Positions 42,233-52,209 are shown, numbered from the stretch's first letter. The stretch is DNA of 64,000 nt from an uncultured Lachnospiraceae bacterium (GCA_964545045.1 CAZJEN010000019.1:743-64742); one strand, 5' to 3'. The notes: a model not told the origin generated them from the letters alone. Numbers and translations are program-made.

Positions 42233-42884
42233 ACGGGAGGTCGTTATAAAAGTAATTGTATTTGACTTGGGCGGTACGTTAATGCAATATGTGGGGATGC
42301 CTCATTCCTGGGTAGAGTTTTATAAACAAGGCTTCGAAGCAATCTGCCGGACCTTTGGGTGTCAGGTGTCGGAAGCGGAGATTGAACGGTCCATACAATG
42401 CTTAACAGAAATGAATCCAAGAGTGAACTACCGGGAGGAGGAATACTTGCCGGAGGAAATGTTCGCGAAGGCGCTGGTTCATTGGCCGGAAGAATTGCCG
42501 ATTGAGGAATGCGTTAAGGTGTTTTTGGACGGTTTAGAATTAAGGGCCGAACTTTATCCGGACGCGATTGTGATACTGCGGGATTTGAAGGAAAAGGGGT
42601 ACAAAATAGCAGCCTTAACGGATTTATCCAGCGGATTTCCGGATGAGCGGTTCCGGCAGGACATCGCAGTACTTATGGGATGTTTTGATTATTATGTATC
42701 CTCTGCAGTTTCCGGTGTCAGAAAACCGAATGACGGCGGACTGCGGATGATTGCCGAAAAGTTTGGAGTGTCTCTTTCGGAGATTGTTTTGGTGGGGGAT
42801 GAGGAGAAAGACGCCCGGACTGCGGAACGGGCCGGATGTAGGTTTGTACGCATGACCGGAGCGGGAAGAGGGAAGGGAGTATAA
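42213..42884 (+). CDS. HAD-superfamily hydrolase
   Basis: VIVFDLGGTLMQ motif I and LVGDEEKD motif IV. Start uncertain; ATG 42213 overlaps the hemW end. Confidence 0.7.
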   Translation: MSLCGGKREVVIKVIVFDLGGTLMQYVGMPHSWVEFYKQGFEAICRTFGCQVSEAEIERSIQCLTEMNPRVNYREEEYLPEEMFAKALVHWPEELPIEECVKVFLDGLELRAELYPDAIVILRDLKEKGYKIAALTDLSSGFPDERFRQDIAVLMGCFDYYVSSAVSGVRKPNDGGLRMIAEKFGVSLSEIVLVGDEEKDARTAERAGCRFVRMTGAGRGKGV

Positions 42885-42936
42885 GCGGTTTGGAGGAACT
42901 GTTGAAAAGATTGGAGTGTATGGGGGGAAGTTGGAG

Positions 42937-42966
42937 TTGACAATTGCTCAAAAGTAATGTTATACT
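42937..42966 (+). promoter_or_regulatory. Promoter of candidate antitoxin sRNA (copy 1)
   Basis: TTGACA (42937-42942), 18-nt spacer, TGtTATACT (42958-42966). Confidence 0.6.
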
Positions 42967-42972
42967 TAGGTC

Positions 42973-43066
42973 AGAAAAGGTGCTACCGATAGAACGGTTG
43001 CCCTGAAATTTTGGGTTACAAAAAAGTAACTGTCAAGTTCTCAGGCTCGGACAGTTACTTTTTTGC
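42973..43066 (+). ncRNA. Candidate ~95-nt sRNA convergent with, and overlapping the 3' end of, the 35-aa peptide gene (copy 1)
   Basis: Strong promoter upstream. Ends in hairpin AAAAAAGTAACTGTC...GACAGTTACTTTTTT, which also contains the peptide stop codon on the other strand. Confidence 0.45.
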
Positions 43067-43280
43067 GTTTTTACCGTTGGAATAGCCTAACTTGTAGGCT
43101 GCACCGCAAGCGATACTTACAATAGCAATCAAATAATACACAGATTCTATAGTCAAATACATAAGCGCAAAAACCTCCCTTTTACATATTCTTGAAGGCA
43201 TGAGCATCCAAGTGAAATCTATGTAAACAGAGCTTGTACTCTCCGGGGGAGGGCAACCGTCCTACCGTACTATGTAGCAC
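42980..43280. repeat. Direct repeat copy 1 (~300 bp) = type I toxin-antitoxin-like module
   Basis: Aligns by eye along its length with 51763-52067. Ends are inverted: GTGCTACCGATAGAACGGTTGCCC ... GGGCAACCGTCCTACCGTACTATGTAGCAC. Confidence 0.85.
43055..43162 (-). CDS. 35-aa hydrophobic peptide, type I toxin-like (copy 1, absent from the ORF track)
   Basis: MYLTIESVYYLIAIVSIACGAAYKLGYSNGKNAKK; GGGAGG RBS 10 nt upstream; the 5' UTR contains the complementary CCCUCCC. Confidence 0.55.
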   Translation of the reverse strand: MYLTIESVYYLIAIVSIACGAAYKLGYSNGKNAKK

Positions 43281-43288
43281 CTAAGAAT

Positions 43289-43317
43289 AGTATAAAACAT
43301 AAATTCGAAAATGTCAA
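43289..43317 (-). promoter_or_regulatory. Promoter of the 35-aa peptide mRNA (copy 1)
   Basis: Minus strand TTGACA, 17-nt spacer, TATACT; predicted start at the repeat boundary. Confidence 0.6.
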
Positions 43318-43401
43318 CGAATAATCGAACATATATTCTTGACAAACGGTGAGAAATGGGCTAATATGAAGATATACAATTGTGTTTGAGGAGGCTATAG
43401 T

Positions 43402-43782
43402 ATGGACGGGATTATCAGAAAGAATTTGGATGATGCATTTGCAAATGAGTGTGCCTATTCGGAAGTGGTGGAGGCCGGTGATTGGGTGTTTCTGAATTTT
43501 TGTGTAGGAAATGTGGGCGGTACAGTGGAAGAACAGGTACATGGCGCTCTTGACCAGATGGAAGCACGTCTTGCGTTGGTGGGACTTACACTGGAGGCTG
43601 TGGTGAAAGTTGATGTTTTAATGAAAGATCCTTGGAATATCCCTGCTATGGAGAAGGTATTTGCTGAGCGTTTTAAAGGAAAGTACCCGGCAAGAAAGAC
43701 GATTGCCACGGAGTTTGCTCACAAGGGCGGCGAGAACGGATTGCAGGTGCAAATCGATGCAATTGCGTATAAAGGTCATTGA
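43402..43782 (+). CDS. RidA/YjgF/L-PSP family protein
   Basis: 126 aa; GAGGAGG RBS; ...YPARKTIA... pattern typical of the family. Confidence 0.75.
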   Translation: MDGIIRKNLDDAFANECAYSEVVEAGDWVFLNFCVGNVGGTVEEQVHGALDQMEARLALVGLTLEAVVKVDVLMKDPWNIPAMEKVFAERFKGKYPARKTIATEFAHKGGENGLQVQIDAIAYKGH

Positions 43783-43820
43783 TGTGGCATAGGGAAGGAA
43801 AGATTTCGATAAAATAAGTC

Positions 43821-43956
43821 TTGCATTTTTTCGTTACATTGTGTATAAAGTAATAGTAGAAAAAGAATACGTTAACTGCCACCGGGTAGTGAATGCGAAG
43901 CATTCGTAGCACATCGTTAGGTCTTAGAAGATGTGTCTGCGGATGCTTTTTGTTTG
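43821..43956 (+). promoter_or_regulatory. Promoter plus leader with an intrinsic terminator upstream of pnuC (candidate riboswitch/attenuator)
   Basis: TTGCAT, 17-nt spacer, TATAAA (43821-43849). Terminator AGCATTCGTAGCACATC ... GATGTGTCTGCGGATGCT followed by TTTTTGTTTG (43899-43956). A competing hairpin GAATGC-GAA-GCATTC (43891-43905) shares the left arm. Confidence 0.5.
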
Positions 43957-44068
43957 AAGGCAAAATCCGAAATGTTATATTACAAAAAGGTAGTTGAAAA
44001 ATGTATAAATCGTAGATAGTTACTTCTGTGGCAGACAAGACTCAGTAGAGAAAAGGAGAACTTTATAT

Positions 44069-44758
44069 ATGAAAAAACGGACTACTTATTTCACCAAAAC
44101 CGAACTTATTCTCTGGTTCGGTTCTATGACCTTAATATTGGCGGCCTTTTGCCTGTTTGACCGGGAAAGTTACTTGACGTTGAGTGCGTCATTGATCGGC
44201 GTGACTTCCCTAATTTTTGCGGCGAAAGGGAATCCGGTGTCTCAGGTGCTGATGATTGCATTTAGCATTTTATATGGGATTATTTCCTATTCTTTTGCCT
44301 ATTACGGGGAGATGCTGACTTATCTAGGAATGACGCTTCCAATGTCGGTGATTGCACTGGTTGCTTGGCTTCGGAATCCGTACGAAGGGAAGAAATCGGA
44401 GGTGAAGGTAAATCATATAGGGAAAAAAGATATTGTATGGATGGTGCTCCTGACGGCAGTGGTAACAGTCGCGTTTTATTTCATATTGGAGGCTTTTGAT
44501 ACCGCCAATATTGTGCCGAGTACGATTTCCGTGACCACCAGCTTTTTGGCGGTGTTTCTGACGTTCCGCCGCAGTCCTTACTATGCGTTGGCTTATGCGG
44601 CCAATGATATTGTGCTCATTGTGCTGTGGGTGTTGGCATCCATAGAGGACATTCATTATGTGTCTGTGGCGGTTTGTTTTGTGGTGTTTTTTGTAAATGA
44701 TATGTACGGATTTGTCAGTTGGCGGAGAATGGCAAAACGCCAGAGGGAGAATGAATGA
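44069..44758 (+). CDS. pnuC: PnuC-family (nicotinamide riboside-type) transporter
   Basis: 229-aa polytopic protein; AAKGNPVSQ...WLRNPY pattern typical of PnuC. Confidence 0.8.
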   Translation: MKKRTTYFTKTELILWFGSMTLILAAFCLFDRESYLTLSASLIGVTSLIFAAKGNPVSQVLMIAFSILYGIISYSFAYYGEMLTYLGMTLPMSVIALVAWLRNPYEGKKSEVKVNHIGKKDIVWMVLLTAVVTVAFYFILEAFDTANIVPSTISVTTSFLAVFLTFRRSPYYALAYAANDIVLIVLWVLASIEDIHYVSVAVCFVVFFVNDMYGFVSWRRMAKRQRENE

Positions 44759-44855
44759 GAAATATTCTGCTAGTTGACTAGAGCGAAAAGCATAGCTTGT
44801 ATTTCGTATGAACAAGCGGTATAATTTTTTTAGGAAAGATTTTTGGGAGGAGACT

Positions 44856-45332
44856 ATGTACAAGCATTATGACAAGGACGGCGCGGCAATCAGTCTGCAT
44901 GACAGCAGAGCCGAAAAGGCAACTTATGAAAACGGTATATTAACCTTTTATTTTCCAGAGGACGGATTCTGGATACTTTCGGAACATGAGGAAAATTCTG
45001 CGGTCGAAGCGGTACGGACGGATGCCTCCGAGGTGCGGTTTCATTTATTATATGAAACCGAAGATGAGTCTCAGTGTTATGTGTTCGATAAGAAATCGGA
45101 ACGAAAGGCAGTGCGGAAGCAGTGGACGCTTTCAGAACTGGTTTCTGCAATAAACAACGGGAAGTATCAACTGGAGTTTTTGTATCGGTACGCAGGCGGA
45201 TATAAGGAACTGGTATTTTACTGCGAGATATGTCAGGATAAGAAACCGTATCGTAGGGAATGCCAGTTGTGGCTGAGTGTGCAGGATGTGACCTATTGTT
45301 GGAATGATTTTGCGAAATGTTACAGAGAATAG
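44856..45332 (+). CDS. Hypothetical protein
   Basis: ATG 44856 after GGGAGGAG; 158 aa; no recognised motif. Confidence 0.55.
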   Translation: MYKHYDKDGAAISLHDSRAEKATYENGILTFYFPEDGFWILSEHEENSAVEAVRTDASEVRFHLLYETEDESQCYVFDKKSERKAVRKQWTLSELVSAINNGKYQLEFLYRYAGGYKELVFYCEICQDKKPYRRECQLWLSVQDVTYCWNDFAKCYRE

Positions 45333-45365
45333 TAGAAAGATTATTCTATAAGGAGATTATGTTAA

Positions 45366-45701
45366 ATGGAGCAATCCACATTTGAACTTATATACAATGT
45401 CGTCAAACAGATTCCAAAAGGTTCCGTCGCAACTTATGGCCAGGTTGCTGCCCTTGCCGGAAATAAACGTTGGGCACGTGTCGTAGGCTACGCCCTTCAT
45501 GCCAATCCGGATCCGGAACATATTCCATGCCATAGAGTGGTGAATCGGGAAGGTGCGGTATCGGAAGCCTTTGCCTTCGGTGGCGAAAACCGGCAGGTGG
45601 AGCTTCTGCGTGAGGAAGGAGTGGAAGTTACCGGTAAGAAGGTGGACCTCACGAAGTACCGCTGGAACCGGATGACGATGGAGATGTTGGGGAAGGAATA
45701 G
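45366..45701 (+). CDS. MGMT-family DNA-binding domain protein (single-domain alkyltransferase-like, Cys retained)
   Basis: 111 aa; IPCHRVVN active-site-type motif; no N-terminal domain. Confidence 0.8.
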   Translation: MEQSTFELIYNVVKQIPKGSVATYGQVAALAGNKRWARVVGYALHANPDPEHIPCHRVVNREGAVSEAFAFGGENRQVELLREEGVEVTGKKVDLTKYRWNRMTMEMLGKE

Positions 45702-45741
45702 GGTAATGTAAAGATTATAGTTGGTTATATTGTTAAAAGAG

Positions 45742-45785
45742 AAAAGTAACGGCCAGTTGTCAAACGTTGACCGTTACTTTTTTAT
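45742..45785. terminator. Bidirectional terminator sharing its stem sequence with the terminators of the two repeat modules
   Basis: AAAAGTAACGG ... CCGTTACTTTTTT; compare AAAAAAGTAACGGTC...GACCGTTACTTTTTT at 51805-51849. Confidence 0.65.
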
Positions 45786-46210
45786 TGTCTTTTTACTTTG
45801 ATTTTCGTAAATTCTATAATTTCTTTTTTATCCGTTTCGGATAGTTTTTCAAAATAATACAAAAGTTCTTTTTCTAAAACAGTATGGAACTGGTACTTTT
45901 TCTTATTGGTTTCGTTGCTGAAGTGACTGAGGTACTCGCCGAAATCTTCTGCGGTATGATCAGGTGTGGAGGTATTAAAAAAATAAATAGAAGGATCAAG
46001 CTCGACGGTATTTGCCATAAGATCATCGACGGTAATGCCATAAAACTTGGCAAGCTTGTAGAGTATATCATTGCTTGGAGTTCTTTTGCCGGTTTCGTAA
46101 TGGGAATAGGTTTGTCTGACAACACCAAGCGCGGCAGCTACATCGGCTTGATTATAGTTGTGAAGTTTTCGAAGTTCTTTTATCTTGCACGCAAGAGTCT
46201 TGTTTGTCAT
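45782..46210 (-). CDS. XRE-family HTH regulator (candidate controller of the adjacent operon)
   Basis: ATG 46210 after GAGGTG; HTH NQADVAAALGVVRQTYSHYETGKRTP; divergent from the methyltransferase operon. Confidence 0.8.
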   Translation of the reverse strand: MTNKTLACKIKELRKLHNYNQADVAAALGVVRQTYSHYETGKRTPSNDILYKLAKFYGITVDDLMANTVELDPSIYFFNTSTPDHTAEDFGEYLSHFSNETNKKKYQFHTVLEKELLYYFEKLSETDKKEIIEFTKIKVKRQ

Positions 46211-46285
46211 GGAAGTCACCTCGTATCGTTTAACTGTCAGAATGAAAAATCATAAGTAAAGTATAGTCGGTTTGTAATACAAAGA

Positions 46286-46363
46286 TGCTACGCGATGTAG
46301 CAAATATTTGACAAAAATGTAAAATAGGTGTAGCATTATGTTAAAATGCTACAAAGTGTAGCG
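46286..46363. promoter_or_regulatory. Divergent promoter region with repeated TGCTAC/GTAGCA operator-like boxes
   Basis: TGCTAC-GCGAT-GTAGCA (46286-46302) and TGCTAC-AAAGT-GTAGCG (46347-46363), plus GTAGCA at 46330-46335. TTGACA at 46308-46313; TGtTAAAAT at 46339-46347. Confidence 0.6.
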
Positions 46364-46443
46364 TTTTGCCGTTGCATAGAACTGCGGGAAGTCGGTTTGG
46401 ATTGAAACGGTGGTCAAAATCCGAGGGAGGAGACGTTGCACTT

Positions 46444-47205
46444 ATGGAAAAACAGGTGAAATCTAAGCAGCGCGTGGCTGATCACGGAGAGGTTTTTACC
46501 GCTGAACGTGAAGTGCAGGCAATGTGCGATTTGGTGAAGCAAGAGACGGAACGAATCGATAGTCGTTTTTTGGAGCCAGCTTGCGGTGACGGAAATTTTC
46601 TTTCTGCGATTTTGGAACGAAAATTAACGGTTGTTACAAAAAAGTACAGACGTAGCGCCTATGACTGGGAGCGTAACGCATTATTGGCGTTGGGAAGCAT
46701 TTATGGGGTAGATATTATGCCGGATAATGTTCTTGCCTGTCAGGAGCGTCTGTTTGAAATTTGGAATAAAGAATACAAGAAGGTTTGCAAAAAAGAATGC
46801 AATGATGCAACGAGAGAAGCGGCGAGGTTTATCCTTTATTTGAACATTGTCTGTGGAAATGCACTGACATTGCTGTGCTGTGATGATGAGGGGAAGGAAC
46901 TGGAAACCCCGATTGTCTTCTCGGAATGGACCTTCCCTTTTAATGACGCACGTATGCAACGTAAGGATTATACGTTCGCTGAACTTTTGGCGGCGGAAGA
47001 TTCAAACGTTAAGAAGAAAAAGCAGGAGGGTGAGTCCTTCGTTCAAGGAACGCTCTTCGATATGGAGTCGGAGAAGGTGGGTGATGAAGGCCGATTCTTG
47101 CAGCAATATATTGCACATTATCGGTGCATTCAAGAGGATGATACCCGTCGAAAGGGAGCAAATCCCTACTTATATCTGACAAAGGAGGAAACGGACAATG
47201 GCTAA
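46444..47205 (+). CDS. DNA-methyltransferase-like protein with a degenerate catalytic motif and no target-recognition domain
   Basis: HGEVFT, motif I LEPACGDGNFL, IYGVDIMPDNV and NIVCGNALT are present. TFPF occupies the position where (D/N)PP(Y/F) is expected. 253 aa. Confidence 0.7.
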   Translation: MEKQVKSKQRVADHGEVFTAEREVQAMCDLVKQETERIDSRFLEPACGDGNFLSAILERKLTVVTKKYRRSAYDWERNALLALGSIYGVDIMPDNVLACQERLFEIWNKEYKKVCKKECNDATREAARFILYLNIVCGNALTLLCCDDEGKELETPIVFSEWTFPFNDARMQRKDYTFAELLAAEDSNVKKKKQEGESFVQGTLFDMESEKVGDEGRFLQQYIAHYRCIQEDDTRRKGANPYLYLTKEETDNG

Positions 47206-48763
47206 CGGTCTTTTTGATAATGTGTATAATCCTGATGTGTTATCTTGTTTGGCAAACCTCTCTAACGATGAGGTATTTACACCGCCTGAAATGGTAAATC
47301 AGATGTTGGATATGCTTCCACAGGAATTGTTTCGCAATCCTGATACCACCTTTTTGGACCCGGCTTGTAAAACAGGAGTTTTCCTGCGAGAGATTGCAAA
47401 GAGACTGATTGTCGGTCTGGAACCTCAGTTCCCGGATTTGCAGGAACGACTGGACCATATTTTTCATAAGCAGTTGTATGGAATTGCGATTACGGAGTTA
47501 ACAAGTCTTCTTTCGAGAAGAGGGTTGTATTGTTCGAAGTATCCGAATAGTGAGTTTTCGGTGTCTTATTTTGATGAGAAACACCAAGACGGAAATATTC
47601 GTTTTAAGAAAATACGACACACATGGGAACCGGAAAAACTCATGAGAGACCTAAACGGGCGAAAAATTGGAAAGTGCATCTGGTGTGGAGCTTCGAGAGA
47701 TGAGTATGACCGGTCGAAAGAGTTGGAGACGCATGCTTATGAATGGATTCATGCAAATCAGCCAGAGGAGATATTTGGTATGAAATTCGATGTAATAATT
47801 GGTAATCCGCCTTATCAGTTAAGTGATGGCGGTAATGGTGCAAGTGCAAAACCGATATATAATCTATTTGTGGAACAGGCTAAGAAATTAAATCCGCGCT
47901 TCTTGATTATGATTATTCCATCTCGTTGGTTCGCCGGAGGAAAAGGTTTGGACGATTTTCGTGAAGCTATGTTAACAGATAGAAGGGTAGTTAGGATAGT
48001 TGACTATGTAAATGCAAAGGATTGTTTCGCTGGGATTAGCCTCGGTGGAGGTGTGTGTTATTTTTTATGGGATAGAGACAATCCGCGGAAATGTGAGTTT
48101 ACAAATATTCATGATGGAAAAGAATCGACAGATTTACGAGATCTTTCTGAGTTTCCTGTATTTGTTCGATACAATGAAGCGATATCTGTTATTCGGAAAG
48201 TATTAGATAAAAATGAACAAAAGGTTTCGGAAGTTGTTGGGTCAAGAAATCCATTTGGTCTTTCATCCGCTGTTCGTGGTGATAAAGACAAGACGGGAAT
48301 TACTGTATATTCCAGTGGCGGGATCGGAAATATAGCAGAAAAAGAGGTAACACAAGGAAAACATTTAATAAATCAATATAAGGTTATGATTAGTAAGGTA
48401 ACAAGTGAGCATGCTGGTGAGCCTGATAAGAGTGGAATGTTTTCTGTACTGTCAACAGTACGTGTTTTGAAACCACAAGAAGTGTGTACGGATTCCTATT
48501 TGATTGCGTATGAATCTAACAATGCCGTATTTGCAGAAAATTTTGCCCAATATATGTGTACAAAATTTTTTAGATTTCTTTTGCTTCAGGCTGTTTCATC
48601 GATTAATCTTTCAAAGGATAAGTTTCAATTTGTTCCTATGCAAGATTTCACGAAAACATGGACTGATGAAATGTTGTATGAAAAATATGAACTTACGCAG
48701 GATGAAGTTGAGTTTATTGAGTCTATGATGAAAGAAAAGGAATTGGAGGGAGGAATTAGGTAA
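47198..48763 (+). CDS. N6-adenine DNA methyltransferase (gamma-class, Eco57I-like methylase domain)
   Basis: AGGAGG RBS; 8-nt overlap with the upstream gene; DEVFTPPEMV, LDPACKTGVFL, FDVIIGNPPYQLSDGG; ~250-aa C-terminal region (putative TRD). Confidence 0.85.
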   Translation: MANGLFDNVYNPDVLSCLANLSNDEVFTPPEMVNQMLDMLPQELFRNPDTTFLDPACKTGVFLREIAKRLIVGLEPQFPDLQERLDHIFHKQLYGIAITELTSLLSRRGLYCSKYPNSEFSVSYFDEKHQDGNIRFKKIRHTWEPEKLMRDLNGRKIGKCIWCGASRDEYDRSKELETHAYEWIHANQPEEIFGMKFDVIIGNPPYQLSDGGNGASAKPIYNLFVEQAKKLNPRFLIMIIPSRWFAGGKGLDDFREAMLTDRRVVRIVDYVNAKDCFAGISLGGGVCYFLWDRDNPRKCEFTNIHDGKESTDLRDLSEFPVFVRYNEAISVIRKVLDKNEQKVSEVVGSRNPFGLSSAVRGDKDKTGITVYSSGGIGNIAEKEVTQGKHLINQYKVMISKVTSEHAGEPDKSGMFSVLSTVRVLKPQEVCTDSYLIAYESNNAVFAENFAQYMCTKFFRFLLLQAVSSINLSKDKFQFVPMQDFTKTWTDEMLYEKYELTQDEVEFIESMMKEKELEGGIR

Positions 48764-51699
48764 TGGCCCAGGAGTTTTTCTTACAACGCCCATCAGTAAC
48801 CCCAACAATCTATGTTTATAACCTCCCGCAAGTAACTACCCACAAAGGCTATGTAAAGGTTGGCTATACTGACCGTGACGCAGAAACACGTATCAATGAG
48901 CAGATGCATACCAGTGGCCTAAAAGCCAACATTCTTTATACGGAATCTGCAATGTGTTCCGACGGTTCCGTTTTTACTGACAAAGAGGTACATCGTGTTT
49001 TGCGTCGTAAAGGCTTCCGTCAGATGAATGAGGGCAATGACCGGAATGAATGGTTTAAGTGTACAGTGGCAGATGTCAAGGCGGCGATTGTGGAGTTAAA
49101 GGAAGGTATTATTACGGAAGCCAGTCGTACCGCTACATTTAAAATGCGTCCGGAGCAACATCATGCTGTAAATCGTACAATGGAGTATTATGCATATGCA
49201 GCGAAGGAAGAACCGGGCAGGCCGCCGAAGTTCCTTTGGAACGCAAAGATGCGTTTTGGTAAGACCTTCGCAGCGTATCAGCTTGCAAAGAAGATGGACT
49301 TTAAGCGTATCCTTGTTTTGACTTTTAAACCTGCGGTGGAATCTGCATGGCGCGAGGATTTGATGACCCATGTAGACTTTGATGGCTGGCAGTTTATTTC
49401 CAATAAGGATGCTGCCGGAAATCATGTGAACATTGATCGTGAGTATATTTATGCGGATAAAAAGAGACCGATTGTGGTGTTCGGTTCTTTTCAGGATTTG
49501 TTAGGAACAAATGAAGCAGGAGGCATCAAAGCCAAGAATGAGTTCATTCATTCGGATAATTGGGATCTCGTGATTTTTGATGAATATCATTTCGGTGCCT
49601 GGCGTGAAAATGCAAGAAAGTTGTTCGAAAATCCGGATGAAGAAGAAACGGCAGATTTTGATGTTGAGAAGTACGGTTTGGAAGAAGCAGGAAACGCTTA
49701 CAATGAGACGTTTTTGCCAATCACAACCGGTCACTATTTGTTCCTGTCGGGCACACCGTTCCGCGCGATCAACAGTGGCGAGTTTATTGAGGACCAGATT
49801 TATAACTGGACGTATTCCGATGAACAGCGTGCAAAAGAAACCTGGGTGGGTTCTAACAATCCATACGCCGCATTACCTCGTATGGTGATGCTTACCTATC
49901 GTATTCCGGACAGCATTCGTCAGATTGCTATGCAGGGGGAATTTAACGAATTTGACCTTAATGTATTCTTTTCGGCAAAAGGCAAGGGTGACGAGGCGAA
50001 GTTTGTATATGAAAATGAAGTACAGAAGTGGCTTGATCTTATCCGCGGTTCTTATCTGCCGTCTAATATCGACGATATGAAGCTGGGACAGGATAAACGT
50101 CCTCCGATGCCGTATTCCGATACTCGTTTACTGAATGTGCTGTCACATACACTTTGGTTTTTGCCGAATGTTGCATCTTGTCAGGCAATGTACAATTTGA
50201 TGATGCAGAAGCAGAATGCATGGTTCAATCAGCGTTATACGATTAACGTTTGCGCCGGGACCAGAGCCGGTATCGGTTTGGATGCGCTTGTTCCTGTGCA
50301 GCGTTCTATGGGAGACCCGCTTGTAACGCAGACCATTACCTTGTCTTGCGGTAAGTTGACAACCGGTGTTACCGTTAGGCCTTGGACCGGAGTTTTTATG
50401 CTGCGTAATCTGAAAAGTCCCGAAACCTATTTCCAGACTGCATTCCGTGTACAGTCTCCGTGGGAAATTACGGATGAGTCCGGGAATCGTCAGATTATGA
50501 AGCAGGAGTGTTATGTGTTTGATTTTGCGTTGGACCGTGCGCTTCGCCAAATTTCCGATTATAGTTGCCGCTTGGATGTAAGGGAATCCAATCCGGAAAA
50601 GAAGGTTGCAGAATTTATCAGCTTCCTTCCGGTACTTGCTTATGACGGAAGCAGTATGCACCAAATCAGTGCGCAGGATATTTTGGATATTGCTATGGCA
50701 GGTACGTCTGCAACACTTCTTGCAAAGCGTTGGGAGTCTGCGTTGCTGGTTAATGTAGATAATGATACGCTTACCCGTCTGATGGCTAGTAAGGAGGCAA
50801 TGAATGCGCTTATGAATATTGAGGGCTTCCGTTCTCTGAACCAGGATATTCAGACCATTATTAATAAGTCCGAAGCAGTTAAGAAAGCCAAAAAGGACGG
50901 CGGAGAAAAGACACAGAAAGAAAAGAAGGAACTTACCGAGCAGGAAAAAGAATATAAGTCCATGCGTAAGAAGATTCAGGAAAAGCTGATTAAATTTGCT
51001 ACCCGTGTTCCGATATTTATGTATCTTACGGATTATCGTGAACGTTCCTTAAGGGATGTGATTACACAACTTGAACCGGGGCTCTTTAAAAAGGTTACCG
51101 GTTTGGATGTGAAGGATTTTGAATTGTTGTGCTCTCTCGGGGTGTTCAATGCAAACCTGATGAACGATGCTATTTTTAAATTTAAGCGTTATGAAGACTC
51201 CAGTCTTTCTTATACCGGTATCGATAAACACAAGGATAAGGATGTCGGCGGTTGGGATACCGTAATTAAACGAGAGGAGTATGACAGGCTTTTTTATAAC
51301 CAGCAGGCGACAATGGAACAGCCGGCGATTTTTGAAGTACCGGTTGCGGCAGAAGACGTCCCGGTTTCGGAAAGAAAACCGGCGGGAAGTCAGAGAAGCG
51401 TTTCGGTAAGTTCCGAACCACAGGCAAAGTCCGGAGAACTGCGATTGATTACCGCGCAGTATGGAGTGAAGTCGCCTGTATATGCAATGAAGGTGGCGGA
51501 TGAACCGTCGGAGTACGGAGTATCCGAGGTGCCGAAGATTAAGAGAGGGGACCAGGTAATACATAAGACCTTCGGAGAAGGTACCATTACCGGAATCGAC
51601 AAGGCACAGACGCATATTCGTGTTACATTTGCCGTGGGGGAAAAGATGTTTATCTATCCGGAAGCATTTGAAAAAGGATTTCTTGTTTTAAAGGAGTAA
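48763..51699 (+). CDS. GIY-YIG/T5orf172-like nuclease domain + SF2 (ResIII-like) helicase + PcrA/UvrD-Tudor-like C-terminal domain
   Basis: TAATG overlap with the methylase. N-terminus TIYVY...VKVGYT...NEWF. Helicase motifs RFGKTF, VIFDEYH, LSGTP, QTAFRVQSP. C-terminus GDQVIHKTFGEGTITGIDKAQTHIRVTF. Confidence 0.8.
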   Translation: MAQEFFLQRPSVTPTIYVYNLPQVTTHKGYVKVGYTDRDAETRINEQMHTSGLKANILYTESAMCSDGSVFTDKEVHRVLRRKGFRQMNEGNDRNEWFKCTVADVKAAIVELKEGIITEASRTATFKMRPEQHHAVNRTMEYYAYAAKEEPGRPPKFLWNAKMRFGKTFAAYQLAKKMDFKRILVLTFKPAVESAWREDLMTHVDFDGWQFISNKDAAGNHVNIDREYIYADKKRPIVVFGSFQDLLGTNEAGGIKAKNEFIHSDNWDLVIFDEYHFGAWRENARKLFENPDEEETADFDVEKYGLEEAGNAYNETFLPITTGHYLFLSGTPFRAINSGEFIEDQIYNWTYSDEQRAKETWVGSNNPYAALPRMVMLTYRIPDSIRQIAMQGEFNEFDLNVFFSAKGKGDEAKFVYENEVQKWLDLIRGSYLPSNIDDMKLGQDKRPPMPYSDTRLLNVLSHTLWFLPNVASCQAMYNLMMQKQNAWFNQRYTINVCAGTRAGIGLDALVPVQRSMGDPLVTQTITLSCGKLTTGVTVRPWTGVFMLRNLKSPETYFQTAFRVQSPWEITDESGNRQIMKQECYVFDFALDRALRQISDYSCRLDVRESNPEKKVAEFISFLPVLAYDGSSMHQISAQDILDIAMAGTSATLLAKRWESALLVNVDNDTLTRLMASKEAMNALMNIEGFRSLNQDIQTIINKSEAVKKAKKDGGEKTQKEKKELTEQEKEYKSMRKKIQEKLIKFATRVPIFMYLTDYRERSLRDVITQLEPGLFKKVTGLDVKDFELLCSLGVFNANLMNDAIFKFKRYEDSSLSYTGIDKHKDKDVGGWDTVIKREEYDRLFYNQQATMEQPAIFEVPVAAEDVPVSERKPAGSQRSVSVSSEPQAKSGELRLITAQYGVKSPVYAMKVADEPSEYGVSEVPKIKRGDQVIHKTFGEGTITGIDKAQTHIRVTFAVGEKMFIYPEAFEKGFLVLKE

Positions 51700-51721
51700 T
51701 CTATACAAGATAAAGTTTCGG

Positions 51722-51750
51722 TTGCTTTTTATTAGAAAGCATGCTATAAT
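51722..51750 (+). promoter_or_regulatory. Promoter of candidate antitoxin sRNA (copy 2)
   Basis: TTGCTT, 17-nt spacer, TGcTATAAT. Confidence 0.6.
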
Positions 51751-51756
51751 AAAACA

Positions 51757-51851
51757 AAGAAAGTGCTACCGATAGAACGGTTGCCCTGAAATTTGACGAA
51801 TTACAAAAAAGTAACGGTCAGCTTACCAGGCGAGGACCGTTACTTTTTTGC
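51757..51851 (+). ncRNA. Candidate ~95-nt convergent sRNA (copy 2)
   Basis: Promoter upstream; terminator AAAAAAGTAACGGTC...GACCGTTACTTTTTT with a compensatory T>G / A>C change relative to copy 1. Confidence 0.45.
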
Positions 51852-52067
51852 GTTTTTACCATTGGCATAACCTAACTTGTAGGCTGCACCGCAGGCGATA
51901 CTTACAATAGCAATCAAATAGTACACAGATTCTATAGTTAAATACATAAGCGCAAAAACCTCCCTTTTACATGTTTCCAAAGGTGAGTACCTATGGATGA
52001 AGCATCTATGTAAACAGAGCTTGTACTCTCTGGGGGAGGGCAACCGTCCTACCGTACTTAGTAGCAC
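51763..52067. repeat. Direct repeat copy 2 (~300 bp) = type I toxin-antitoxin-like module
   Basis: Same organisation as 42980-43280; most divergent in the middle of the 5' UTR and in the terminator loop. Confidence 0.85.
51840..51947 (-). CDS. 35-aa hydrophobic peptide, type I toxin-like (copy 2)
   Basis: MYLTIESVYYLIAIVSIACGAAYKLGYANGKNAKK (one substitution vs copy 1); GGGAGG RBS. The 75-aa track ORF is an upstream extension. Confidence 0.55.
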   Translation of the reverse strand: MYLTIESVYYLIAIVSIACGAAYKLGYANGKNAKK

Positions 52068-52075
52068 TTTAGTAC

Positions 52076-52104
52076 ATTATAGGTCGTAGGATAATAGATG
52101 TCAA
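52076..52104 (-). promoter_or_regulatory. Promoter of the 35-aa peptide mRNA (copy 2)
   Basis: Minus strand TTGACA, 17-nt spacer, TATAAT. Confidence 0.65.
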
Positions 52105-52139
52105 TCGAACAAATTATTAAAATTATTTCACCTTACCAC

Positions 52140-52209
52140 TTGACAAATGTTTCTTGTGGTGTTATTTTATAGACACAAGGTATTAGCACTCCATCGAGTT
52201 GAGTGCTAA
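52140..52209 (+). promoter_or_regulatory. hrcA-dnaK operon promoter with CIRCE operator
   Basis: TTGACA at 52140-52145; perfect CIRCE TTAGCACTC-N9-GAGTGCTAA at 52183-52209. Confidence 0.9.

What the first reader, a model, noticed from the sequence alone, without database searches (positions are those of the whole stretch)
48763..51699. Helicase-nuclease carrying a PcrA/UvrD-type Tudor-like C-terminus, a possible tether to RNA polymerase
The last ~55 aa (KRGDQVIHKTFGEGTITGIDKAQTHIRVTFAVGEKMFIYPEAFEKGFL) resemble the C-terminal Tudor domain of PcrA/UvrD (GDRVxHxKFGEGTVV...I.V.F). In those helicases that domain binds the RNAP beta subunit. It is separated from the helicase core by a long, apparently disordered Ser/Pro/Glu-rich linker (about 51300-51530). 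A nuclease-helicase recruited to transcribing RNAP would be an unusual mechanism for a restriction-like enzyme.
Basis: inference. Interest (0 to 1): 0.7.

Follow-up and report, generated by a model that had tools for sequence, protein, structure and literature searches.

The report
Restriction motor with a UvrD-type Tudor tail
The nuclease-helicase subunit of a widespread, mobile restriction-modification system ends in a flexible linker and a small Tudor domain of the kind that the repair helicases PcrA/UvrD use to dock onto RNA polymerase and UvrB, so this restriction enzyme may be tethered to host transcription or repair machinery; no binding partner was tested.

Summary
ORF 48763-51699 (978 aa) is intact. 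It has an N-terminal T5orf172/GIY-YIG nuclease, an SF2 (ResIII) motor with intact Walker A, DEYH and SGTP motifs, a helical region, a 77-aa hypervariable linker (res 849-925) and a 53-aa C-terminal domain (res 926-978).

A profile of that tail from 48 homologues hits only UvrD C-terminal domains in the PDB (E 2.7e-5). hhalign against PcrA+UvrD gives 94% probability. The AF2 model (pLDDT 90) is a five-stranded Tudor barrel, and its five best PDB matches are all UvrD/PcrA Tudor domains, two of them in complex with RNAP or UvrB. The four PcrA residues needed for RNAP binding (H681, W684, K712, L714) correspond to H934, F937, K961 and F963, which are invariant or nearly invariant here.

The gene is the last of a translationally coupled module (small SAM-motif protein, N6A methyltransferase, nuclease-helicase). 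The module occurs in at least 575 species genomes across many phyla. Close relatives lack the tail or carry a different one (for example Peptidase_S24) yet keep the same partner genes, so the tail is a swappable accessory adaptor.

An RNAP tether is the leading reading, but it rests on homology only. UvrB, autoinhibition and DNA binding remain open. I rate this a new variant of a known kind.

The parts
45782..46219 (-). XRE-family HTH protein (145 aa), divergently oriented. It may be the controller of the module. In other loci a 68-73 aa HTH_26 gene sits on the same strand as the module.
   Evidence: Pfam HTH_3 E 8.9e-18; HTH_26 genes upstream in L001 and L004.
46444..47205 (+). Small conserved subunit (253 aa from Met27 of the listed ORF). 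It carries SAM motif I (FLEPACGDGNFL) but no NPPY catalytic motif.
   Evidence: 66% identity to the 226-aa gene of the Dehalococcoides locus, starting at this Met. Present as a separate gene in most related loci. Weak MmeI_Mtase and MTase hits.
47198..48763 (+). N6-adenine DNA methyltransferase of the Eco57I family (521 aa) with a C-terminal target-recognition region. Motif I is FLDPACKTGVFL and motif IV is GNPPYQ.
   Evidence: Pfam Eco57I E 2e-35; PADLOC MTase_II E 2e-51; sequence. Its TAA stop overlaps the next ATG (TAATG at 48761-48765).
48763..51699 (+). The whole nuclease-helicase-Tudor gene (978 aa plus stop).
   Evidence: More than 8000 homologous clusters, the top 120 at 74-92% identity.
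48808..49092 (+). T5orf172 / GIY-YIG nuclease domain (res 16-110).
   Evidence: Pfam T5orf172 E 1.5e-10, above the cut-off. Many invariant residues (Y17, Y19, K32, G34, T36, R38, N95, E96). AF2 pLDDT about 80.
49123..51072 (+). SF2 helicase/translocase core (res 121-770): Walker A MRFGKTF (163-169), DEYH (273-276), SGTP (329-332).
   Evidence: Pfam ResIII 30.6 bits against a cut-off of 22.5. PADLOC REase_MTase_IIG PDLC03626 E 8e-33 over res 121-770. The motifs are invariant in 53 homologues.
51307..51537 (+). Hypervariable, probably disordered linker (res 849-925).
   Evidence: No invariant columns. pLDDT <50. Composition enriched in P, S, E, A and V. Length 31-99 aa and unrelated sequences in other members.
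51445..51471 (+). Short conserved island in the linker, LITAQYGVK (res 895-903; family consensus [LS][VI]TxQYG[IV]K). It is present only in the nearest clade. Its function is unknown.
51538..51696 (+). C-terminal Tudor domain of the PcrA/UvrD type (res 926-978). Five strands and one helical turn. H934, F937, F956, K961 and F963 correspond to PcrA H681, W684, F705, K712 and L714.

Best explanation
The gene encodes the motor-nuclease subunit of an ATP-dependent restriction-modification module. The module has three translationally coupled genes: a small SAM-motif protein, an Eco57I-family N6A methyltransferase with a recognition domain, and a GIY-YIG nuclease fused to an SF2 translocase.

[quoted passage not shown] The tail is an optional, swappable protein-protein adaptor rather than part of the catalytic machinery.

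By homology it most likely docks, through the conserved His/aromatic/Lys surface, onto an exposed 'TGE' beta-hairpin (the helicase-interaction motif) of a host protein. The RNA polymerase beta subunit (SI1/lobe) is the first candidate and UvrB the second. This would keep the restriction motor tethered on a long leash to transcription elongation complexes. Possible consequences are concentrating the enzyme on DNA that the host polymerase is actively transcribing (which includes freshly injected phage or plasmid DNA), or managing collisions between the translocase and RNAP.

What is shown: the domain architecture, the fold, homology to the UvrD/PcrA CTD, conservation of the binding-surface residues, dispensability and modularity of the tail, and operon structure and distribution.

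What is inferred: the partner (RNAP or UvrB), the effect on restriction, and that the module restricts at all.
For: Architecture.

Tudor identity:
- Profile against the PDB finds only UvrD CTDs, E 2.7e-5.
- 42 of 48 tails match PF21196 and 26 of 48 match CarD_TRCF_RID at E<1.
- hhalign 94.4%, E 9e-8.
- AF2 pLDDT 90.4.
- The Foldseek top five are 7egs_B (UvrD CTD with the RNAP lobe), 7egt_B (UvrD CTD with UvrB), 6yi2, 5dma and 9dqs.

Binding surface: the PcrA mutants H681A, W684A, K712A and L714A lose RNAP binding (PMC5397179; numbering checked against 5dma/1pjr). The equivalents H934, F937, K961 and F963 are invariant or at least 90% conserved in 53 homologues.

Same overall design as PcrA/UvrD: a disordered linker followed by a Tudor domain (PMC8318588, PMC5397179).

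Accessory nature:
- 15 of 82 related genes end right after the core at about 850 aa, and 3 carry another module: Peptidase_S24 (E 1.8e-12), a DUF4926/SH3-like domain, or an unassigned one.
- The nearest neighbours of several tail-less genes, at 79-88% core identity, have the Tudor.
- The small-protein and methyltransferase genes are present in both tail-bearing and tail-less loci. Assembly with the system's own subunits therefore does not need the tail.

Target availability: the system crosses phyla, so a target would have to be nearly universal. The TGE motif is reported in most bacterial RpoB and UvrB sequences (PMC8318588).
Against: - No binding was tested, and no rpoB or uvrB is in the window. 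No helicase-interaction motif was found in the window.
- The window's own tail is below Pfam's curated cut-off for PF21196 (18.2-18.4 bits against 23.9) and scores equally well against CarD_TRCF_RID. The binding site on RNAP, if any, could therefore differ from that of PcrA.
- The conserved His, aromatic and Lys residues could be retained for fold stability or for weak DNA binding, since in UvrD the same surface binds DNA (PMC7585439).
- The same Tudor subtype occurs in tandem arrays of 5-7 copies and in TerB membrane proteins. That is not an obvious design for RNAP docking.
- In UvrD and UvrD1 the Tudor domain is dispensable for repair in vivo (PMC11975281), so any phenotype may be subtle.
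- A related module in B. subtilis (dnmA-yeeB-yeeC) showed no restriction under the conditions tested (PMC9973331).
Confidence: 0.45

Rival explanations
1. The Tudor tail recruits the enzyme to UvrB and nucleotide-excision repair rather than to RNAP. One possible purpose is to hand nicks or gaps made by the GIY-YIG nuclease on host DNA to the repair machinery, limiting self-damage.
For: The PcrA/UvrD Tudor binds UvrB through the same TGE hairpin and competes with RNAP for it (PMC8318588). 7egt_B (Thermus UvrD CTD with the UvrB N-terminal domain) is the second-best structural match, with TMt 0.81. The lysine that is critical in PcrA is invariant here. UvrB is near-universal, which fits the cross-phylum spread.
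Against: There is no direct evidence. This reading is not separable from the RNAP reading by sequence, because both partners present the same motif. The nearest non-UvrD relatives of the fold (CarD/CdnL, Mfd RID) bind RNAP, not UvrB.
Confidence: 0.15
2. The tail acts within the enzyme. It either docks back on the motor as an autoinhibitory latch or mediates dimerisation of two motor subunits, so that cleavage is licensed only after a trigger.
For: In mycobacterial UvrD1 the Tudor was fitted into density between subdomains 2A and 2B. It has been proposed to autoinhibit unwinding until Ku binds, and removing the E. coli UvrD C-terminus destabilises dimers (PMC11912403, PMC11975281). ATP-dependent restriction enzymes commonly need two motors to meet before cutting (established knowledge of Type I, III and ISP enzymes).
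Against: The full-length AF2 model was too poor to show any docking (pLDDT 51). Tail-less and tail-swapped natural variants exist at 79-96% core identity, which is hard to reconcile with an integral regulatory latch. No TGE-like hairpin motif occurs in the three subunits, apart from a non-conserved SGEL in the linker.
Confidence: 0.12
3. The tail is a weak, non-specific nucleic-acid-binding module that increases the residence time of the motor on DNA or on R-loops and ssDNA.
For: The UvrD CTD binds ssDNA and dsDNA weakly through the same aromatic and positively charged surface (PMC7585439). Tandem arrays of the same Tudor subtype (5-7 copies) would suit multivalent binding to a polymer.
Against: The PcrA CTD showed no detectable DNA binding (PMC8318588). 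A DNA clamp on an 80-aa floppy leash adds little to a motor that already grips DNA. The specific conservation of the PcrA K712 equivalent points to the protein-hairpin contact.
Confidence: 0.1
4. The tail binds one of the system's own subunits (the methyltransferase or the small SAM-motif protein) and holds the restriction complex together.
For: The motor must associate with the recognition subunit. A PADLOC model exists in which a related motor and methyltransferase are fused in one 1359-aa chain (PDLC03626).
Against: Tail-less relatives keep the same small-protein and methyltransferase genes. Neither subunit in the window contains a [TS]G[ED][VILM] or D..TGE motif. The long helical region 590-845 is a more likely assembly domain, by analogy only.
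Confidence: 0.06

Closest known systems
[quoted passage not shown]
   Same: A five-stranded Tudor barrel at the extreme C-terminus, behind a disordered linker. It shares the G-x-x-V-x-H-x-x-F/W-G-x-G-T-V signature, the conserved Phe in strand 3 and the G-x-K-x-L/F segment. The residues PcrA needs for RNAP binding are conserved.
   Different: It is attached to an SF2 ResIII motor with a GIY-YIG nuclease, not to an SF1 UvrD helicase. The last strand and turn differ (FxFPDAFxxGFL against LLAxFAPxE). The window sequence is below the Pfam cut-off. It forms its own subfamily: 2248 representative proteins match at E<=1e-3. No partner is known.
RNAP-interacting Tudor-like domains of Mfd and CarD/CdnL (Pfam CarD_TRCF_RID) and of RapA
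   Same: Same fold class. 26 of 48 family tails match PF02559 at E<1 (best 1.2e-6). CdnL and CarD-RNAP beta structures appear among the Foldseek matches (ranks 7 and 38). All are adaptors that tether a DNA motor or regulator to RNAP beta.
   Different: Those domains bind the beta1 lobe by beta-sheet augmentation and lack the aromatic cage (PMC7585439). The profile search of the PDB found UvrD but not Mfd or CarD.
dnmA(yeeA)-yeeB-yeeC module of Bacillus subtilis and Vibrio (MmeI-like methyltransferase + SF2 helicase + T5orf172 protein)
   Same: The same three activities (N6A methyltransferase, SF2 helicase, T5orf172/GIY-YIG) in one horizontally acquired operon (PMC9973331).
   Different: Here the T5orf172 domain is fused to the N-terminus of the helicase, the methyltransferase is a shorter Eco57I-family enzyme, and there is an extra small SAM-motif subunit. 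Orthology was not tested. No Tudor tail is reported for YeeB or YeeC.
Type III (Res/Mod) and Type ISP ATP-dependent restriction enzymes
   Same: A ResIII-type SF2 motor coupled to a nuclease and dependent on a separate (Type III) methyltransferase/recognition subunit. PADLOC files the motor with a Type IIG/ISP-like fused model.
   Different: The nuclease is GIY-YIG at the N-terminus rather than PD-(D/E)XK. There is an extra small subunit and a C-terminal Tudor. No sequence relative of the whole protein has a solved structure.
RapA-like BREX helicase BrxHII and related defence helicases with an N-terminal Tudor domain
   Same: Precedent for a Tudor domain on a defence-system SF2 helicase, noted computationally (PMC12839542).
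   Different: That Tudor is N-terminal, RapA-type, and sits on a Swi2/Snf2 motor. It was interpreted there as a DNA or modification reader. It is not the PcrA/UvrD subtype.

Membership tests
PcrA/UvrD Tudor domain (PF21196) | Scores above Pfam's gathering threshold (23.9 bits) | tested here: not met
   The window tail scores 18.2-18.4 bits, E 2e-3. 42 of 48 family tails match at E<1, best 6e-5. Tandem-array relatives found with the family profile pass clearly (P0143 68.7 bits, P0184 47.6 bits).
PcrA/UvrD Tudor domain (PF21196) | Profile-level homology to solved UvrD/PcrA CTDs | tested here: met
   hmmsearch of the PDB finds only UvrD CTDs, E 2.7e-5 to 0.025. hhalign gives 94.4%, E 9e-8. The score of 26.9 bits is in the range seen between bona fide UvrD CTDs: E. 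coli against Thermus 24.2 bits, against M. smegmatis 17.6 bits.
PcrA/UvrD Tudor domain (PF21196) | Five-stranded Tudor barrel | tested here: met
   AF2 pLDDT 90.4 with strands 14-17, 21-28, 34-39, 42-47 and 57-59 of the 61-aa construct. The Foldseek top five are UvrD/PcrA Tudors, TMq 0.61-0.70.
PcrA/UvrD Tudor domain (PF21196) | Conserved partner-binding residues (PcrA H681, W684, K712, L714) | tested here: met
   H934 and F963 are at least 90% conserved and F937 and K961 are invariant in 53 homologues. PcrA numbering was verified.
PcrA/UvrD Tudor domain (PF21196) | Binds RNAP beta SI1/lobe or the UvrB TGE hairpin | not testable with these tools
   No complex prediction or experiment was possible, and no rpoB or uvrB is in the window.
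PcrA/UvrD helicases (SF1A) | UvrD-type SF1 helicase core (Pfam UvrD-helicase / UvrD_C) | tested here: not met
   Pfam finds ResIII (SF2) and no UvrD-helicase domain. The motifs GKT, DEYH and SGTP are SF2-like.
Type III restriction enzyme Res subunit | ResIII SF2 helicase domain | tested here: met
   PF04851 scores 30.6 bits against a cut-off of 22.5.
Type III restriction enzyme Res subunit | C-terminal PD-(D/E)XK nuclease | tested here: not met
   The nuclease is an N-terminal T5orf172/GIY-YIG domain, and no PD-(D/E)XK family is reported.
Restriction-modification system (generic) | Nuclease gene linked to a DNA methyltransferase with a recognition domain, conserved as an operon | tested here: met
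   Eco57I-family methyltransferase immediately upstream with a TAATG overlap. The same gene order occurs in Dehalococcoides, in gut MAGs and in about 70 species genomes.
Restriction-modification system (generic) | Methylation-sensitive cleavage of foreign DNA | not testable with these tools
   No experiment was possible. The related B. subtilis dnmA-yeeBC module showed no restriction, while the Vibrio one did against some phages (PMC9973331).
dnmA-yeeB-yeeC type module | Orthology of the methyltransferase, helicase and T5orf172 parts to YeeA, YeeB and YeeC | not tested
   Only the domain composition was compared (PMC9973331).

The most novel reading that the evidence does not exclude
A large, mobile family of ATP-dependent restriction enzymes is physically coupled to the host's transcription elongation complexes (or to UvrB) through a borrowed PcrA/UvrD Tudor domain. 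The position after the motor core would then be a general plug-in slot for host-machinery adaptors (Tudor for RNAP/UvrB, an S24 LexA-like module for RecA filaments, others). In that case, where and when restriction happens would be set by host transcription and DNA-damage state and not only by methylation.
Probability: 0.3. Interest if true: 0.8.

Novelty: new variant of a known kind. Interest (0 to 1): 0.6.

Why it matters
Restriction enzymes are thought to find their targets by diffusion or ATP-driven translocation, independently of host machines. A dedicated RNAP- or UvrB-docking domain on the motor subunit would mean one of two things. Restriction could be targeted to, or protected from, transcribed DNA. 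Alternatively, the enzyme could use the same hub as PcrA/UvrD and compete with it.

The family is very common in gut and rumen bacteria (more than 8000 protein clusters, at least 575 species genomes) and travels on mobile elements, so the effect would be widespread.

The finding is also directly testable. Natural tail-less and tail-swapped relatives exist at 79-96% core identity. Single residues (K961, H934, F937) have clear precedents in PcrA. The fact that the same Tudor subtype recurs in other conflict-type proteins suggests a broader, undescribed use of this adaptor in defence systems.

Tried and rejected
- A full-length AF2 model from 53 homologues (75-92% identical) was too shallow. Mean pLDDT was 51 and only the GIY-YIG domain and the Tudor were confident. 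It says nothing about docking of the tail or of the linker motif, and it was not used for fold search.
- Exact-sequence look-up of the window protein in the contig index found nothing. The cluster look-up showed only that the source is an unnamed 66.8-kb NCBI contig, so the host species is not identified. Synteny points to Bacillota.
- A search for the helicase-interaction motif [VIL]DxxTGE[VIL][VILT], and relaxed forms of it, in all six frames of the window found nothing relevant. The only [TS]G[ED][VILM] match in the three subunits is a non-conserved SGEL in the linker, so a pseudo-ligand in the linker was rejected.
- The profile of the whole protein has no sequence relative in the PDB, and NCBIfam has no model for it.
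- Single-copy chimeras in the representative search (TetR_N+tail, PseudoU_synth+tail, small subunit+tail, and others) look like deletion derivatives or assembly artefacts and were not used as evidence.
- Spurious low-complexity Pfam hits to the K/E-rich helix 667-772 (OmpH, Mod_r, ATG14) were ignored.
- Literature searches for a PcrA/UvrD-type Tudor in restriction or anti-phage proteins found no description. The library is incomplete, so this does not prove absence.

Full report
**1. What is in the sequence**

The ORF 48763..51699 (+) is intact and encodes 978 aa. Its parts are:
- Pfam places a T5orf172/GIY-YIG nuclease at residues 16-110 (E 1.5e-10).
- Pfam places a ResIII SF2 helicase domain from residue 126 (30.6 bits against a cut-off of 22.5).
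- A PADLOC model for a fused motor-methyltransferase restriction enzyme (PDLC03626) aligns with residues 121-770 (E 8e-33).
- The motor motifs MRFGKTF, DEYH and SGTP, and the GIY-YIG core residues, are invariant in 53 homologues. Both activities are therefore probably intact.
- Residues about 590-845 are helical in a low-confidence model.
- The chain then runs through residues 849-925. This stretch is enriched in P, S, E, A and V, has no invariant column and has AF2 pLDDT below 50.
- The last 53 residues form a sharply conserved block (invariant G929, F937, G938, G940, F956, K961, L974).

**2. Is the tail a PcrA/UvrD-type Tudor domain?**

*Single sequence.* Alone, the tail gives only sub-threshold Pfam hits to two RNAP-binding Tudor families: CarD_TRCF_RID (E 8e-4) and PcrA_UvrD_tudor (E 2e-3).

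*Profile searches.* I aligned 48 non-redundant tails taken from the 120 best of more than 8000 homologous clusters.
- Searched against all PDB sequences, this profile retrieves only UvrD C-terminal domains: E. coli 7egs_B E 2.7e-5, 6yi2_A 3.7e-5, Thermus 7egt_B 5e-3, Deinococcus 4c2t 0.025.
- That score (26.9 bits) is in the range that genuine UvrD CTDs give each other.
- 42 of 48 tails match PF21196 and 26 of 48 match CarD_TRCF_RID at E<1.
- hhalign against the verified PcrA and UvrD CTD sequences gives 94.4% probability, E 9e-8.

*Structure.* AF2 on the tail alignment gives a confident model (pLDDT 90.4) with five strands and a helical turn. Its five best Foldseek matches in the PDB are, in order:
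- the UvrD CTD bound to the RNAP lobe (7egs_B);
- the Thermus UvrD CTD bound to UvrB (7egt_B);
- the UvrD CTD NMR structure (6yi2);
- the PcrA Tudor (5dma);
- the UvrD1 Tudor (9dqs).

Eukaryotic PHF1 Tudors, CdnL/CarD and Mfd follow further down the list.

**3. Is the binding surface retained?**

Sanders et al. showed that the mutations H681A, W684A, K712A and L714A in the Geobacillus PcrA Tudor greatly reduce RNAP binding. K708A in E. coli UvrD reduces RNAP remodelling (PMC5397179). I verified the PcrA numbering against 5dma/1pjr.

In the alignment these positions are H934, F937, K961 and F963 of the window protein. F937 and K961 are invariant, and H934 and F963 are at least 90% conserved. 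F956 matches the cage residue F705.

Urrutia-Irazabal et al. showed that this surface grips a TGE beta-hairpin, the 'helicase interaction motif' [VIL]DxxTGE[VIL][VILT]. The motif is present in RpoB SI1 of most bacteria and in UvrB, and RNAP and UvrB compete for the domain (PMC8318588).

**4. Genomic context**

The gene is the last of a tight module:
- a 253-aa protein (46444-47205) with a SAM motif I but no NPPY;
- a 521-aa Eco57I-family N6A methyltransferase (47198-48763) with both motifs and a C-terminal recognition region;
- the motor-nuclease itself, whose ATG overlaps the methyltransferase stop (TAATG).

The same order, usually preceded by a small HTH gene, is found in Dehalococcoides mccartyi, in gut metagenomes and in about 70 species genomes. 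In the window a divergent XRE HTH gene (45782-46219) takes that place.

The module lies in a lower-GC stretch (0.38-0.45 against 0.48-0.50). This stretch interrupts the Bacillota-type synteny lepA-hemN | hrcA-grpE-dnaK-dnaJ-prmA-rsmE. The host is therefore most likely a member of the Bacillota; the closest hit is an Oscillospiraceae MAG at 92%.

Elsewhere the module rides on elements with serine recombinases, a capsid gene and a D5-type primase, or next to conjugation genes. Eight IMG/VR contigs carry it.

**5. Distribution and modularity of the tail**

They fall in Bacillota, Bacteroidota, Fibrobacterota, Spirochaetota, Chloroflexota, Actinomycetota, Pseudomonadota, Myxococcota and others.

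I scored the tail HMM over all frames of the loci and checked the C-termini. The 82 related genes divide as follows:

| C-terminus | Genes |
|---|---|
| Tudor tail | 61 |
| Ends just after the core (about 850 aa, after ...EYxxLFxxQQ) | 15 |
| Cut by a contig end | 3 |
| A different C-terminal module | 3 |

The three alternative modules are Peptidase_S24 (L070, E 1.8e-12), a DUF4926/SH3-like domain (L081) and an unassigned 130 aa (L077).

Several observations point to rapid exchange:
- Several tail-less genes have Tudor-bearing nearest neighbours at 79-88% core identity.
- The S24 variant's nearest neighbours carry the Tudor.
- Cores 91-96% identical to each other carry different tails.
- The small-subunit and methyltransferase genes are present whether or not the tail is.

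The tail is therefore an accessory, exchangeable adaptor. It is not needed for the system's own subunit set. This mirrors PcrA/UvrD, where the CTD is dispensable for helicase activity.

**6. The same Tudor subtype elsewhere**

An exhaustive search of 1.84 billion representative proteins with the tail profile found 2248 proteins at E<=1e-3 and 383 at E<=1e-10. Many are C-terminal fragments of this family. Others are different proteins:
- tandem arrays of 5-7 copies that pass the PF21196 threshold (P0143, P0184, P0216, P0280);
- TerB_N/TerB_C proteins (P0174, P0219);
- a 2992-aa DUF4011-SF1 helicase-MTES_1575 nuclease protein with four copies (P0135);
- an HTH_3+Tudor protein (P0256).

These proteins bridge the family tail to PF21196. 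They also show that the subtype recurs in conflict-type proteins.

**7. Mechanism**

*Best-supported reading (confidence about 0.45).* The tail is a leash-mounted docking domain for a TGE-hairpin host protein. RNAP beta is the first candidate and UvrB the second. It would tether an otherwise ordinary ATP-dependent restriction motor to elongation complexes.

*Shown:* the architecture, the fold, the homology, the conserved surface, the accessory nature of the tail, and the operon structure and spread.

*Inferred:* the partner, and any consequence for targeting transcribed incoming DNA or for handling motor-RNAP collisions.

*Rivals:*
- UvrB/NER coupling (0.15).
- An intramolecular latch or dimerisation, as proposed for UvrD1 and UvrD (PMC11912403, PMC11975281) (0.12).
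- Weak DNA binding, as seen for the UvrD CTD (PMC7585439) (0.10).
- Binding to the system's own subunits (0.06). This is disfavoured and by the absence of any TGE-like motif in those subunits.

**8. Comparison with what is known, and novelty**

The protein is not a PcrA/UvrD helicase, because its motor is SF2. It is not a canonical Type III Res either, because its nuclease is an N-terminal GIY-YIG. The nearest described system by composition is dnmA-yeeB-yeeC (PMC9973331); orthology was not tested. RapA-type N-terminal Tudor domains on BREX-related helicases have been noted computationally (PMC12839542).

I found no description of a PcrA/UvrD-type Tudor on a restriction or defence enzyme, within the limits of the library. 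I classify the finding as a new variant of a known kind: known parts in an undescribed and very widespread combination, with a clear and testable hypothesis.

**9. Limits**

- No partner was tested.
- The host genome is not available.
- The window's own tail is below Pfam's curated threshold.
- The full-length model failed.
- The conserved linker island LITAQYGVK (res 895-903), present only in the nearest clade, is unexplained.

Noticed in passing
window 46444-47205: A conserved 253-aa protein with a methyltransferase SAM motif I (FLEPACGDGNFL) but no NPPY catalytic motif is encoded as a separate gene. It overlaps the start of the complete Eco57I-family methyltransferase by 8 nt. It is present in most related loci, so it is a real third subunit and not a frameshift fragment. 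Its role is unknown.
   Followed up: partly
L070:5497-8970; L081:2061-4868; L077:5965-8910: In close relatives the position of the Tudor tail is occupied by other modules: a Peptidase_S24 (LexA/CI-like) domain, a DUF4926/SH3-like domain, or an unassigned 130-aa extension. Cores 91-96% identical to each other carry different tails. The C-terminus is a hot spot for module exchange.
   Followed up: partly
window 51445-51471 (res 895-903): A short conserved island, LITAQYGVK (consensus [LS][VI]TxQYG[IV]K), sits in the middle of the otherwise hypervariable linker. It is conserved only in the nearest clade and resembles a short linear motif. No partner or structure could be assigned.
   Followed up: partly
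proteins P0143, P0184, P0216, P0280, P0174, P0219, P0135, P0256: The same Tudor subtype occurs in several other protein types: tandem arrays of 5-7 copies, TerB_N/TerB_C proteins, four copies in a 2992-aa DUF4011-SF1 helicase-MTES_1575 nuclease protein, and a fusion to an XRE HTH. This points to a wider, undescribed use of the domain in conflict systems.
   Followed up: partly
window about 42300-52200: A lower-GC segment (0.38-0.45 against 0.48-0.50) interrupts the conserved Bacillota gene order lepA-hemN | hrcA-grpE-dnaK-dnaJ-prmA-rsmE. It carries HAD hydrolase, RidA, PnuC, an unassigned 174-aa ORF, an Ogt-like alkyltransferase, an XRE HTH and the restriction module. It looks like an inserted island, but its ends were not mapped.
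   Followed up: partly
L001:1-12750 (Dehalococcoides mccartyi CP141531.1); L086-L093: The module sits in small mobile elements. In D. mccartyi it lies between two serine recombinase genes, together with a phage capsid gene and a D5-type primase (satellite-like). In L004 it is next to a T4SS coupling protein, a UvrD-like helicase, and WYL and GmrSD genes. Eight IMG/VR viral contigs carry homologues at 58-92% identity.
   Followed up: no
proteins P0133, P0137, P0146, P0148, P0223, P0226: Metagenomic proteins join the N-terminus of the small subunit, of the GIY-YIG domain, or of unrelated proteins directly to the linker or Tudor tail. They look like internal deletion derivatives of the module or assembly chimeras.
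   Followed up: no
window 45366-45701: A short (111 aa) Ogt-type methylated-DNA-protein-cysteine methyltransferase domain protein lies just upstream of the module, within the same low-GC segment.
   Followed up: no
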